64,000 bases of DNA from Harriotta raleighana (taxonomy: Eukaryota). A program made the position numbers. Shown one piece after another: positions 57,001 through 60,000 of the stretch. Position 1 is the stretch's first letter. Each line of letters begins with the position of its first letter. The stretch spans positions 6,320,248 through 6,384,247 of the forward strand of contig JBNZDD010013695.1 in assembly GCA_050575255.1 (NCBI GenBank), given 5' to 3'.

Positions 57001-60000
57001 GTATAAAATTCTAATGAGCAGTTTTATTAATGAGCAATTATATCCTCTGGTGAGAAAACTGAGGAATAGAGGCCAGTATTAAGCTTGAGACCAAACTGTT
57101 TAGAAATGAAATAGGGAAACATTTCCCATAGCTGGCTGTGGGTGTGGCATTCTCTCCCCCAGTAGTCACTGAGGTACAGTTTAGCAGCCCATCCCAATAT
57201 TGCAAACTAACCTTCCTTCCCCATGCTGATCCAGACCTCCCAGCAGACAACAAAACTACAACTAGCAACGGCCTGTTTCAGTTCCGTTTCACTAGAACTC
57301 GTGCAATCCCTTTGCCTCGCTTCTCCCTTTCCTCCTTAAAGACCTTCTTCGACCATGCATTCTGCTGCCCTAACTCTCCTCCCTTTCCTACTCTCCACTC
57401 ACCCCTCCCTGCTCAGGAACCAAACTGACTGTTCAGCACCTTGGAACTTCATCTTAACATNTTGACAATGTGTTGTTAAGAAAGAAAGCAAATTAGATCC
57501 CATCTTGAGTCAGGATTGTTCATTGTTCCAAAATTTATCACCGGGTTTTTCCTGTGTGCATTCATAATGCACTGCTGCCCCCCGCTGGTCAAAGATCTCC
57601 ATAACCAGTTGGGTTCTGAGCAGCTCAGTCATGTTTTTGGTCAGGTATAAAGTGACCAACAATAACAATCCTTGCATTTGATATAGTGCTTATCACTTCT
57701 TCTAGACTTCTCAAAGTGCTTCACAGATTACACTGTAAAGTGAATTGACTATATATTTGTGGGAAAAACACAGCAGCCAATTGTACACAGGGGTGTCTCA
57801 TTCATGGAATGAGTGACAAAATTATTATTGCTTTTCTTTGAAGGGATTATTAGCAGGCGTGTGTGGAGTAAGGAAATTTGCCTAAGCTTTCGCCCCGCCC
57901 GGAATCAAACCCAGGTCTCTCACTTGACTCACTAAGTTTGTGTCGAGTTCAGGGATCAGTGGAGACCTGAATGGACAGTGATCTAATTTCTCCTGGCGTT
58001 TGTGTCTATTGGTTAATCCATGTATAAAATTCTAATGAGCAGTTTTATTAATGAGCAATTATATCCTCTGGTGAGAAAACTGAGGAATAGAGGCCAGTAT
58101 TAAGCTTGAGACCAAACTGTTTAGAAATGAAATAGGGAAACATTTCCCATAGCTGGCTGTGGGTGTGGCATTCTCTCCCCCAGTAGTCACTGAGGTACAG
58201 TTTAGCAGCCCATCCCAATATTGCAAACTAACCTTCCTTCCCCATGCTGATCCAGACCTCCCAGCAGACAACAAAACTACAACTAGCAACGGCCTGTTTC
58301 AGTTCCGTTTCACTAGAACTCGTGCAATCCCTTTGCCTCGCTTCTCCCTTTCCTCCTTAAAGACCTTCTTCGACCATGCATTCTGCTGCCCTAACTCTCC
58401 TCCCTTTCCTACTCTCCACTCACCCCTCCCTGCTCAGGAACCAAACTGACTGTTCAGCACCTTGGAACTTCATCTTAACATGAAAGGCACTCTATAAATA
58501 TAATTTGGTGGTTGTTGTTGTTATTGTACTGGAAGCAATTTAGACCAAGCCCTGTAACAGGCAAGCATTGGGGCAAGCGACAACAGGCTGAAGGTCCGAG
58601 TAACACAATCACAATTTCGCTTGCAAGCCAACAAAACATTGTCCATCGTTTTGCAATGTAAACCCAGCGATTTCACCAAAGCTTGGGAGCTCAGAGACAG
58701 GTTCAGGTCAAGGCAAAAAGCAAAATACTGCAGATACTGAAAATCTGGCCTGAACAGAATTGTCTGGGAACTCAGCAGGTCATACAGCACCTACTTCCCA
58801 CTCTCTGTTGATGCTACCTGATCTGCTAAGTGTACCCAACCACTTCAATTTATTTTAGGCCATGCACCCAAGTCGATTCACTTTAGTATATATCCTGTAA
58901 AGCCCTCCACAATCTCACCCCACCCTACATCCATGACTTCCTACTTTCATACCAACCGACCTGCCTCCTCCATTCAGCAGGCTCTGGCCTGCTCCATATC
59001 CCCACACCTACCATTGGTGGGCAAGCCTTCAGGCCACTCTGCCCATCAACCTACTCCGTCCTGCAGTGCCCCAGCCTCACACCCCCTGGGCTTCCTTCAA
59101 GTCTCTCCTCTTCGATGGACCCATCGGCAACTTCTAATATCCCCCTCCCACTCCTGTCCTCAGCTCGGGTCTGAAGCAGCGACTGTCCAGCGCCTTGGAA
59201 CGTCCTCATGACATGAAAGGGATTATACAAGAGTAATTTTGTTGTTGTAAGGCGCAGTGAAACATCTAGACGGGATAAGACGCCATATTAAATGTAGGGA
59301 TTAGATCACATGCTGTTATTATTTTCTGCTTCCAACAGCTCCTGCCTGGCCCAGATAGTGGAGCTCATTGAAACTGGGGTGCCCGATGCTCTGTGAAATC
59401 AAGTGTCCAGATCAATCTCCATCCACATACCCCAACTCCCTCCCCTCCCAGTCTGTGCGTGGGCCCCGTGAGTGCGTGTACGTGACCAAGCGTCCCTGGC
59501 AGCCGTGACAGCGAGACCGACAGGGATAGTAGGAAACGAGTTGCTGTCGGCAGGGGGAACGACAGCACAGCACCACACAGCTATGTTGTAACTTATCCTG
59601 CACCTGAGCGTGCGGCTCAGCCTCAGGGGAAGAGAGGCTGGACAGCAGCAAGCGTCAAGAGATCTATCAAGGCCCCAATCACAGTCTATCTGCCTCTCAT
59701 GATTGACAGATGATGAATCAGAAGCTCCTGAATGGTCTGATAGTGTGTTACAGCTCCTCATTACATCCAACATCCAACGCTGACCAAGACGCTGTGTTTA
59801 CGTGGAGAGTGTGCAGGTCTACACTGGGGCAAGAGCACCACTGAGGTTTTCAAATCCTGTGGGAATCAGTAACTACCCTTCACCATTGTGACGGTTGTCG
59901 TGCATGCATCCCCCCCTGGCTGTGACCGTCTAACTCAGAGCAAGGGTGTGGAGACTCTCTGGGTAACAGAGAAATCAGCCCACAGCCGATCAGTAAAACA

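What the first reader, a model, noticed from the sequence alone, without database searches (positions are those of the whole stretch)
59365..59645. Intact E3 snoRNA beyond the RPS14 poly(A) site, followed by an in-frame candidate alternative last exon
Seen: copy C lies about 400 nt past AATAAA yet keeps H, ACA and both pockets. About 83 nt after its 3' end is an acceptor TTGATTTCACAG|AG (59391) that starts with the same AG as exon 5; exon 4 (ATT G) joined to it reads ...GRI-EHRAPQFQ-stop. An AATAAA occurs at 58849-58854. Known: vertebrate H/ACA snoRNAs are normally released from introns, the basic uS11 tail ([11 protein letters not shown]) is needed for 18S maturation, and ribosomal protein genes often autoregulate by unproductive splicing. 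Inference: an exon-5-skipping or read-through isoform could release extra snoRNA while making non-functional RPS14, uncoupling snoRNA from protein output.
Basis: partly seen in the sequence, partly recalled or inferred. Interest (0 to 1): 0.7.

Follow-up and report, generated by a model that had tools for sequence, protein, structure and literature searches.

The report
Extra E3 snoRNA copy behind RPS14
A third, intact copy of the E3/SNORA63 guide RNA sits just past the end of the ribosomal protein gene RPS14 in a cartilaginous fish, but the "alternative last exon" proposed to release it looks no better than chance.

Summary
Copy C (59474-59603, minus strand) is a full-length SNORA63/E3 H/ACA snoRNA. 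It scores 93.7 bits (gathering score 90, E 3e-14), the best of three copies. It starts 400 nt past the RPS14 AATAAA. The AG at 59392-59391, the EHRAPQFQ-stop reading and the AATAAA at 58854-58849 are all present.

The alternative-exon reading is not supported:
- The acceptor ties the weakest of 11 real acceptors in the window.
- 12 of 99 nearby AGs equal or beat it.
- "In frame" means little, because any AG gives some peptide.
- The stop would lie in the last exon, so the isoform would not be an NMD target.
- The "exon" is partly dispersed repeat.

Copy C is a local DNA duplicate of about 180 nt of the intron-4 copy (93.9% identity, no poly(A) tail, no target-site duplication). It lies in the roughly 7 kb RPS14-CD74 spacer.

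All four of its substitutions spare the boxes, base pairs and pocket loops (chance 0.04-0.16). That hints weakly at constraint.

My best reading is that transcription past the RPS14 poly(A) site crosses it, and a snoRNP assembled on it is trimmed out, SPA-like. A silent copy remains a strong rival. No RNA data and no related genomes were available.

The parts
59474..59603 (-). Copy C of the SNORA63/E3 box H/ACA snoRNA (130 nt including 3 nt after ACA). H box 59547-59542, ACA 59479-59477. Copy-specific bases at 59582 (A), 59576 (G), 59516 (U) and 59480 (U).
   Evidence: Rfam RF00092, 93.7 bits, gathering score 90, E 3e-14, model 1-130 of 130. 30 of 30 pairs canonical, boxes intact.
59466..59644 (-). 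Duplicated segment shared with the intron-4 copy: 41 nt of upstream flank, the snoRNA, and about 8 nt downstream.
   Evidence: blastn 59466-59644 against 60307-60485, 179 nt at 93.9%. Body 4 of 130 differences, flank 7 of 49. No target-site duplication and no A-tail.
60315..60444 (-). Copy B of SNORA63 in RPS14 intron 4, the closest relative of copy C.
   Evidence: Rfam 92.2 bits; alignment.
61428..61557 (-). Copy A of SNORA63 in RPS14 intron 3.
   Evidence: Rfam 89.8 bits, just under the gathering score of 90. Identical to B over the first 98 nt.
60771..60847 (-). RPS14 exon 4. It ends in phase 1 and its donor is TTG|GTAAGG.
   Evidence: Pfam Ribosomal_S11 profile 69-92, E 3.2e-07.
60036..60103 (-). 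RPS14 exon 5 coding part (basic C-terminal tail) with stop TAA at 60038-60036.
   Evidence: Pfam Ribosomal_S11 profile 94-110. Acceptor has 15 of 20 pyrimidines and an 11-nt run.
60003..60008 (-). RPS14 poly(A) signal AATAAA, followed by a GU-rich stretch.
59365..59392 (-). Acceptor-like AG (59392-59391) and the short reading (E)HRAPQFQ-stop proposed as an alternative last exon. Judged to be a chance feature.
   Evidence: translation. (12 of 20 pyrimidines; 12 of 99 neighbouring AGs are as good or better).
58849..58854 (-). Next AATAAA downstream, with a GU-rich stretch after it. Possible 3' end of a read-through or SPA-like RNA. It is flanked by repeat-derived pieces.
   Evidence: repeat hits 58801-58846 and 58871-58906.
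59162..59248 (.). Dispersed repeat inside the proposed terminal exon.
   Evidence: 9 other matches in the window at 76-83% identity.
52808..52894 (-). CD74 (invariant chain) exon 1, the next gene downstream on the same strand. It places copy C about 6.6 kb upstream of the first CD74 coding exon, in the spacer.
   Evidence: tblastn with Callorhinchus milii CD74 (P0004), residues 3-31, 76% identity, E 7e-09. CLIP, trimerisation and thyroglobulin-1 exons by Pfam.

Best explanation
Copy C is a genuine third paralogue of the SNORA63/E3 pseudouridylation guide. A local DNA-level duplication copied about 180 nt of the intron-4 copy (the snoRNA plus its immediate flanks) to a site 400 nt beyond the RPS14 poly(A) signal. 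That site is on the same strand, in the spacer before CD74 (shown).

It keeps every feature needed to form an H/ACA snoRNP (shown).

Inferred mechanism:
1. RNA polymerase II keeps transcribing for some distance past the RPS14 cleavage site, so copy C is transcribed whenever RPS14 is.
2. H/ACA proteins assemble on it co-transcriptionally and independently of splicing.
3. The 5'-3' exonuclease that degrades the downstream cleavage product stops at the snoRNP.
4. The 3' side is either trimmed to give a mature snoRNA, or cleaved and polyadenylated at the next AATAAA (58854-58849). The latter would give a snoRNA-headed RNA of about 770 nt, as described for SPA lncRNAs.

The acceptor-like AG at 59391 and the 8-codon reading behind it are chance features, not an alternative RPS14 exon.
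For: - Family membership and intactness.
- Duplicate of copy B with sharp borders: 179 nt at 93.9%. There is no target-site duplication and no A-tail.
- Same strand, 400 nt after a canonical AATAAA.
- Next gene: the first CD74 coding exon is at 52894-52808. So copy C is not in a CD74 intron by the model derived here.
- Hints of constraint: the B-C body differs at 4 of 130 sites against 7 of 49 in the flank (Fisher p 0.010). The 4 changes are G.U to A-U, C-G to U.G, one apical-loop base and one tail base. None is in a box or pocket loop. The chance of that for 4 random substitutions is 0.16, or 0.04 if pocket loops must also be spared.
- No strong donor lies between the stop codon and copy C: 6 GT sites reach 6-7 of 9 consensus matches and none more. 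The acceptor is at background level.
- Literature, passages only. SPA lncRNAs arise from the cleavage product downstream of a poly(A) site because a snoRNP blocks XRN2, and an H/ACA snoRNA (SNORA5C) can replace the natural box C/D one (PMC11028025; PMC10557570).
- Splicing-independent co-transcriptional H/ACA recognition is known to me only from the title of Richard et al. 2006 in a reference list. The paper is not held.
Against: - No RNA evidence of any kind was available.
- The RPS14 poly(A) signal looks strong (AATAAA plus GU-rich downstream sequence). The natural SPAs lie behind a weak one (PMC11028025 passage).
- A run of 7 G at 59916-59910 lies between the poly(A) site and copy C. G-rich pause sites downstream of poly(A) signals promote XRN2-dependent termination (PMC3145960, abstract start in the listing only). 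Polymerase may therefore often stop before copy C.
- Copy C evolves faster than the intronic copies. A and B are identical over the first 98 nt, while B and C differ at 3 sites there.
- Polarised with copy A, the C-lineage rate in the body (4 of 130) is not clearly below that in the flank. Depending on how ambiguous sites are assigned, the flank is 3 to 6 of 49, giving Fisher p 0.39 to 0.027.
- The flank sample is tiny and its borders were set by BLAST.
- In human, only 10.2% of intergenic snoRNA copies are detectably expressed against 40.6% of intronic ones (PMC13736004 passage).
Confidence: 0.5

Rival explanations
1. Silent duplicate. Copy C is a fairly young by-product of local duplication that is not made into a stable snoRNP, or makes no difference. 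It looks intact only because too little time has passed.
For: - All 4 body changes fall on the C lineage and none on B.
- C has 3 changes in the first 98 nt, where A and B have none.
- The C-lineage body rate against the flank rate is not significant under one assignment (p 0.39).
- It has no intron context.
- The base rate for intergenic copies in human is 10.2% expressed (PMC13736004 passage).
Against: - Flank divergence of 7 of 49 (14%) argues that the duplication is not very recent.
- At half that rate about 9 changes would be expected in the body, against 4 seen (Poisson P 0.046).
- The 4 changes are all structure-neutral (chance 0.04-0.16).
- It has the highest Rfam score of the three copies.
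Confidence: 0.3
2. RPS14 exon 4 splices past exon 5 and its poly(A) site to the AG at 59391. This makes copy C intronic and yields a uS11 that ends in EHRAPQFQ.
For: - The motifs exist as described.
- An AATAAA with GU-rich sequence follows at 58854-58849.
- Uncoupling of snoRNA and host output by alternative splicing and NMD is discussed for other host genes (PMC11028025 passages).
Against: - The acceptor ties the weakest of 11 real ones, and 12 of 99 local AGs are as good or better.
- It must beat a much stronger proximal acceptor and a canonical poly(A) site.
- Its stop lies in the last exon, so it would not be degraded by NMD (recalled rule). It would encode a stable truncated protein.
- The exon is partly dispersed repeat.
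- The 83-nt spacing to the acceptor is not shared by copies A and B. Their 3' ends lie about 580 and 210 nt from their acceptors.
Confidence: 0.06
3. Copy C lies in an unrecognised intron that leaves the RPS14 protein intact. One option is a 3'-UTR intron from the GT at 60018 (CAT|GTCAGT) to an AG after the snoRNA. Another is an intron of an unannotated non-coding host, or of an upstream CD74 leader exon.
For: - The GT at 60018 matches 7 of 9 consensus positions, within the range of the 8 real donors scored (6-9 of 9).
- Five AGs after copy C (59390, 59345, 59341, 59265, 59170) pass the same pyrimidine filter.
Against: - The 60018 donor lacks G at -1 and has C at +3.
- No CpG-rich promoter-like stretch lies between 53.5 kb and 60 kb. 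CpG observed/expected stays at or below 0.71 there outside the RPS14 3' end.
- No donor beyond the poly(A) site exceeds 6 of 9.
- CD74 exon 1 with its ATG is about 6.6 kb away.
Confidence: 0.07
4. Assembly artefact. Copy C is a mis-assembled second image of the intron-4 copy.
For: The same spacer holds an exact 1020-nt duplication around a single N, so the local assembly is imperfect.
Against: B and C differ at 11 of 179 aligned positions. Similarity ends abruptly 41 nt upstream and about 8 nt downstream. The surrounding 59249-59465 and 59645-60010 are unique in the window.
Confidence: 0.02

Closest known systems
SNORA63 / E3 box H/ACA snoRNA of tetrapods (Rfam RF00092)
   Same: - Full-length match above the gathering score, with the same two-hairpin fold, H and ACA boxes.
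- The right-hand strands of both pocket loops are identical to the Rfam consensus (alignment).
- The family guides pseudouridines 28S-4390 and 28S-4491 in human numbering (PMC6984369 passages; PMC7072173 table passage).
   Different: - In human and chicken the host is EIF4A2 (PMC7072173 passages; PMC2653536 table passage 'EIF4A2 (intron 8) ... E3').
- Here three copies sit in and behind RPS14.
- Whether this species also has an EIF4A2 copy is unknown.
SPA lncRNAs (5' snoRNA-ended, 3' polyadenylated; SPA1 and SPA2 downstream of SNURF-SNRPN)
   Same: A snoRNA lies on the same strand downstream of a host gene's poly(A) site, with a further AATAAA about 750 nt beyond it. The mechanism needs no splicing. 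An H/ACA snoRNA can serve experimentally as the 5' block (PMC11028025 passage).
   Different: - The natural SPAs are headed by box C/D snoRNAs, are much longer and follow a weak poly(A) signal.
- Here the signal looks canonical.
- No RNA has been seen.
- The review states that natural H/ACA-headed SPAs are expected but not yet found (PMC11028025 conclusion passage).
Intragenic duplication of snoRNA paralogues into neighbouring introns of one host gene
   Same: Copies A, B and C are clustered within 2.1 kb on one strand. Chicken snoRNA paralogues arise almost always by intragenic duplication into adjacent introns (PMC2653536 passage).
   Different: The newest copy overshot the gene and landed past the last exon and the poly(A) site, so it has no intron.
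snoRNA host genes that uncouple snoRNA and mRNA output by alternative splicing coupled to NMD (for example SNORD2/EIF4A2, SNORD86/NOP56)
   Different: Those isoforms carry a premature stop upstream of a junction and are degraded. The proposed RPS14 isoform has its stop in the last exon, and its acceptor is at background level.
H/ACA snoRNA retrogenes (L1-mediated copies)
   Same: Copy C is a dispersed extra copy outside an intron.
   Different: It has no poly(A) tail and no target-site duplication. It carries 41 nt of intronic upstream flank, so it is a DNA-level duplicate. PMC1802619 was seen only as an abstract start in the listing.

Membership tests
SNORA63/E3 (Rfam RF00092) | Covariance-model score at or above the curated gathering score, over the full model length | tested here: met
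   93.7 bits against 90, model 1-130 of 130, E 3e-14.
Box H/ACA snoRNA | Hairpin-hinge-hairpin-tail fold with intact stems | tested here: met
   30 of 30 pairs canonical in copy C, and likewise in A and B. The minimum-free-energy fold of C is the two-hairpin fold.
Box H/ACA snoRNA | H box (ANANNA) in the hinge and ACA three nucleotides from the 3' end | tested here: met
   ACAGCA at snoRNA positions 57-62 and ACA at 125-127 of 130. The true RNA 3' end is not known.
Box H/ACA snoRNA | Pocket sequences complementary to a target uridine site in rRNA | not testable with these tools
   No rRNA sequence of this species was at hand. The pocket loops of C are identical to those of copy B, and their right-hand strands match the Rfam consensus.
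Box H/ACA snoRNA | Accumulates as a stable RNA bound by dyskerin | not testable with these tools
   No expression data.
Intron-encoded vertebrate snoRNA | Lies between a donor and an acceptor of a host transcript | tested here: not met
   By the RPS14 model derived here it lies 400 nt past the AATAAA. It is about 6.6 kb upstream of CD74 exon 1. An unannotated intron cannot be excluded without RNA data.
   12 of 20 pyrimidines, against 12-17 for the 11 real acceptors. 12 of 99 AGs in 58800-60002 and 61 of 499 in 52950-60002 are as good or better.
   No RNA-seq and no eukaryotic genome collection was available.
Unproductive splicing coupled to NMD | Stop codon more than about 50-55 nt upstream of a later exon junction (recalled rule) | tested here: not met
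   The stop at 59367-59365 lies in what would be the terminal exon.
SPA lncRNA | snoRNA downstream of a host poly(A) site on the same strand, with a further poly(A) signal beyond it | tested here: met
   AATAAA at 60008-60003, snoRNA at 59603-59474, AATAAA at 58854-58849.
SPA lncRNA | Weak upstream poly(A) signal or efficient read-through | tested here: inconclusive
   The hexamer is canonical with GU-rich sequence after it. Strength cannot be measured from sequence.
SPA lncRNA | Detected RNA with a snoRNA 5' end and a poly(A) tail | not testable with these tools
   No expression data.
snoRNA retrogene | A-rich tail and flanking target-site duplication | tested here: not met
   No direct repeat flanks the unit. 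The only families found are internal or 9 nt long. No A-run follows the ACA box.

The most novel reading that the evidence does not exclude
[quoted passage not shown] Part of the product is polyadenylated at 58854-58849, giving a natural H/ACA-headed SPA-like RNA of about 770 nt. This would be the first natural H/ACA example of that class, and in an early-branching vertebrate. It would give the cell E3 output tied to RPS14 transcription but not to RPS14 splicing.
Probability: 0.15. Interest if true: 0.7.

Novelty: new member of a known kind. Interest (0 to 1): 0.35.

Why it matters
Vertebrate snoRNAs are nearly all cut out of introns. An intact, possibly constrained copy sitting 400 nt behind a strongly expressed gene's poly(A) site is a natural test of whether H/ACA snoRNPs can be made from post-cleavage transcripts. 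A recent review expects such natural H/ACA-headed SPA RNAs but says none has been found (PMC11028025 passage).

It also shows E3 in a different host (RPS14) from the one in human and chicken (EIF4A2). That adds a case to the question of how stable snoRNA-host pairings are across vertebrates.

If copy C is silent, it is an ordinary by-product of local snoRNA duplication.

Tried and rejected
- Retroposition: rejected. There is no target-site duplication and no A-tail, and 41 nt of intronic flank was co-copied.
- CD74 intron: rejected on the model derived here. CD74 exon 1 with its ATG maps to 52894-52808.
- More copies elsewhere: none. Rfam at E up to 0.1 over 1-54500 and E up to 1 over 54000-64000 gives only the three.
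- Own promoter or host gene: no CpG-rich stretch and no good donor upstream of copy C. The bacterial promoter scanner was not used because it does not apply.
- Thermodynamic stability: uninformative. The z-scores of the three copies are -1.53, -0.04 and +0.40.
- Pairing of the flanks:
  - The CU-rich upstream and G-rich downstream flanks of all three copies can pair, with duplex energies of -39.0, -32.2 and -38.8 kcal/mol.
  - These are stronger than for random window 50-mers. Random segments reached the observed value in 2, 14 and 7 of 300 trials.
  - Against shuffles of the same flank the result is 3, 87 and 70 of 300, so for B and C the pairing is a matter of composition.
- Repeat content of the 'exon': only partial. 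59162-59248, 58871-58906 and 58801-58846 hit other places in the window. 59249-59475 is unique.
- Literature on RPS14 as an E3 host: nothing found.
  - 'snora63' + 'rps14' gave 2 papers, both unrelated by title.
  - 'snoRNA' + 'Callorhinchus' + 'host gene' gave 2 papers, unrelated by title.
  - 'snoRNA', 'rps14', 'intronic', 'teleost' gave 134 papers with at least 3 terms. 12 were listed and none is on this by title.
- Richard et al. 2006 could not be read because it is not held.
- Not done: a search for an RPS14 isoform with the alternative tail. The junction was not assembled. Each piece alone is too short or too conserved to be informative.
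Full report
WHAT IS THERE

On the minus strand the window carries RPS14 (uS11). Its coding exons are 62419-62271, 62100-61939, 60847-60771 and 60103-60036, with the stop TAA at 60038-60036.

Searched exon by exon, the four pieces match successive parts of Pfam Ribosomal_S11: profile positions 1-21, 24-72, 69-92 and 94-110. 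The joined protein was not assembled or searched.

AATAAA lies at 60008-60003 and is followed by GU-rich sequence.

Rfam finds three full-length SNORA63/E3 box H/ACA snoRNAs on this strand:

| Copy | Rfam match | Location | Bits (gathering 90) |
|---|---|---|---|
| A | 61430-61557 | intron 3 | 89.8 |
| B | 60317-60444 | intron 4 | 92.2 |
| C | 59476-59603 | past the poly(A) signal | 93.7 |

No further copy exists in the window.

- Copy C begins 400 nt after the AATAAA.
- Its H box is ACAGCA at 59547-59542, and its ACA is at 59479-59477 with three bases after it.
- All 30 pairs of the two-hairpin fold are canonical.
- The AG at 59392-59391 lies 83 nt after the snoRNA end.
- Exon 4 ends in phase 1, and both exon 5 and the candidate exon start with AG.
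- The reading from 59388 is HRAPQFQ-stop.
- The next AATAAA is at 58854-58849.

CONTEXT

The next gene on the same strand is CD74.
- Pfam finds its CLIP/transmembrane, trimerisation and thyroglobulin-1 exons at about 51.0, 49.9 and 48.9 kb.
- tblastn with cartilaginous-fish CD74 proteins places exon 1, with the start codon, at 52894-52808.

Copy C therefore sits in a spacer of about 7 kb between RPS14 and CD74.

A two-exon sulfatase gene lies further on, at 29285-29608 and 23144-24610. From memory, sulfatase (ARSI)-CD74-RPS14 is also the human 5q33 order.

The best named CD74 match is Callorhinchus milii, at 60% identity over 90% of the first query and up to 86% per exon. The animal is thus a cartilaginous fish and probably a chimaera relative. 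I did not try to identify it further.

ORIGIN OF COPY C

- C matches B over 179 nt at 93.9% (59466-59644 against 60307-60485). It matches A over 147 nt at 91.8%.
- The shared segment is the snoRNA, 41 nt upstream and about 8 nt downstream. Beyond that the flanks are unrelated apart from a G-rich patch.
- There is no A-tail and no flanking direct repeat.

C is therefore a DNA-level duplicate of the intron-4 copy and not a retrocopy. Eleven differences and sharp borders argue against an assembly ghost. The spacer does, however, hold an exact 1020-nt duplication around a single N further downstream.

IS COPY C UNDER CONSTRAINT?

For constraint:
- B and C differ at 4 of 130 positions in the snoRNA and at 7 of 49 in the co-duplicated flank (Fisher p 0.010).
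- With A as outgroup, all four body changes are on the C lineage. They are:
  - G.U to A-U in hairpin 1;
  - C-G to U.G in hairpin 2;
  - one apical-loop base;
  - one base in front of ACA.
- None of the four lies in a box or a pocket loop.
- Four random substitutions would spare boxes and pairs with probability 0.16. They would also spare the pocket loops with probability 0.04.
- If only C were free to drift at half the flank divergence, about 9 changes would be expected (Poisson P of 4 or fewer, 0.046).

Against constraint:
- A and B are identical over the first 98 nt, although their flanks are far more diverged. C has 3 changes there. C is therefore less constrained, or less homogenised, than the intronic copies.
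- The C-lineage comparison of body and flank gives p 0.39 to 0.027, depending on the ambiguous sites.

I read this as a weak lean towards function.

THE PROPOSED ALTERNATIVE EXON

I compared its acceptor with the 11 real acceptors that can be placed in this window, four in RPS14 and seven in CD74.
- These have 12-17 pyrimidines in the 20 nt before the AG. The candidate has 12, with a longest run of 4. Exon 5 has 15, with a run of 11.
- Among the 99 minus-strand AGs between 58800 and 60002, 12 have at least as many pyrimidines, a pyrimidine at -3 and as long a run. In the whole spacer the figure is 61 of 499.
- Five such AGs follow copy C within 310 nt.

Other points against the exon:
- 'In frame' adds nothing, because the phase is fixed by exon 4 and the reading stops after eight codons.
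- The stop lies in what would be the last exon. By the 50-55 nt rule (recalled) the isoform would not be an NMD target. It would be a stable mRNA for a uS11 without its C-terminal tail, which is not the usual logic of autoregulatory unproductive splicing.
- The body of the 'exon' contains dispersed repeat pieces: 59162-59248 (9 other matches), 58871-58906 (5) and 58801-58846 (1). The second AATAAA sits between two of these.
- No donor beyond the poly(A) site exceeds 6 of 9 consensus matches. The best nearby sites, at 7 of 9, are 60018 inside the 3' UTR and 60001 at the poly(A) signal.

HOW IT MOST LIKELY WORKS

Shown: an intact H/ACA snoRNA gene lies 400 nt behind the poly(A) signal of a gene with a 5'-TOP-like start, on the same strand.

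Inferred:
1. Polymerase II normally transcribes beyond the cleavage site (recalled general knowledge), so copy C is transcribed with RPS14.
2. H/ACA proteins bind nascent snoRNA sequences independently of splicing. I know this only from the title of Richard et al. 2006, seen in a reference list. The paper is not held.
3. The downstream cleavage product is degraded 5'-3' by XRN2 until a snoRNP blocks it. This has been shown for SPA lncRNAs, where an H/ACA snoRNA could replace the natural box C/D one (PMC11028025 and PMC10557570, passages).
4. The 3' side would be trimmed to a mature snoRNA. Alternatively it would be cleaved at 58854-58849 to leave an RNA of about 770 nt.

Against this mechanism:
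- The RPS14 signal looks strong.
- A run of seven G at 59916-59910 could act as a pause or termination site before copy C (PMC3145960, abstract start only).
- Most intergenic snoRNA copies in human are not detectably expressed: 10.2% against 40.6% of intronic ones (PMC13736004 passage).

COMPARISON WITH WHAT IS KNOWN

- The RNA is a clear member of SNORA63/E3. That family guides 28S-4390 and 28S-4491 (PMC6984369 passages).
- Its host in human and chicken is EIF4A2 (PMC7072173 passages; PMC2653536 table passage).
- RPS14 as a host was not found in my searches (listings only). The supplementary ortholog tables of PMC13736004, which might cover it, were not available.
- Local duplication into neighbouring introns is the usual way snoRNA paralogues arise in chicken (PMC2653536 passage). 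Here the newest copy landed past the gene's end.

VERDICT

| Reading | Probability |
|---|---|
| Copy C is made from post-poly(A) transcription (my best reading) | 0.5 |
| Silent copy | 0.3 |
| Hidden intron that leaves the protein intact | 0.07 |
| Assembly artefact | 0.02 |

The snoRNA part of the finding is real and mildly interesting. The alternative-exon part is not supported by the sequence.

WHAT STAYED UNCHECKED

- Expression of any kind.
- Presence of the copy in relatives.
- rRNA target complementarity in this species.

Noticed in passing
window 56441-57460 and 57462-58481; also 40976-41141 = 42164-42329, and 4542-4701 = 5678-5837: Exact duplications sit around N positions. 1020 nt are repeated head-to-tail around a single N in the RPS14-CD74 spacer, and there are shorter exact repeats at two other gaps. 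They look like assembly or scaffolding artefacts, so the spacer may be about 1 kb shorter than it reads. Nothing was filled in.
   Followed up: partly
window 61430-61557, 60317-60444, 59476-59603 (minus): E3/SNORA63 is hosted by RPS14 here, whereas passages in two papers give EIF4A2 as the host in human and chicken. This is either a host difference or an additional locus in a cartilaginous fish. I found no report of it.
   Followed up: partly
window 59604-59625, 60445-60466, 61558-61578 (minus), directly 5' of each snoRNA copy: A small hairpin (stem CUGAGC/GCUCAG, 5-nt loop; one pair shorter in copy A) abuts the 5' end of all three copies. It is conserved where the rest of the A flank has diverged. 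Only loop bases differ, so there is no covariation. It may be a processing element or a conversion tract.
   Followed up: partly
flanks of all three copies, e.g. 59626-59648 and 59430-59449 (minus): A CU-rich stretch upstream and a G-rich stretch downstream of each copy can pair, with duplex energies of -32 to -39 kcal/mol. That is stronger than for random window segments, but for B and C it is no better than composition-matched shuffles.
   Followed up: yes
window 59447-59478 (plus-strand coordinates): A 15-nt motif is repeated 17 nt apart right after the ACA box of copy C (80% identity). This accounts for the insertion of C relative to B.
   Followed up: no
window 63307-63364, 37148-37212, 14767-14839, 5944-6015 (all minus): There are four tRNA-like matches, two of them weak or truncated, and one lies inside RPS14 intron 1. 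They are probably tRNA-derived SINEs rather than tRNA genes.
   Followed up: no
window 48778-52894 (minus): A CD74 (MHC class II invariant chain) gene with eight mappable coding exons, including a thyroglobulin type-1 exon. The closest named relative is Callorhinchus milii.
   Followed up: partly
window 23144-24610 and 29285-29608 (minus): A two-exon sulfatase gene (Pfam Sulfatase, E 8e-43 and 5e-12). From memory it fits ARSI and the human 5q33 gene order.
   Followed up: no
window 63232, 56410, 55220 (minus) and related sites: A repeat family carries AATAAATTGGTCA(T/A)TTCAA..., so several AATAAA hexamers in the spacer and in RPS14 intron 1 are repeat-borne. This is a caution against reading them as evolved poly(A) signals.
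   Followed up: no
window 35131-35300 (plus): A weak SCARNA7-like match at 28.6 bits, far below the gathering score of 65. It is probably chance.
   Followed up: no
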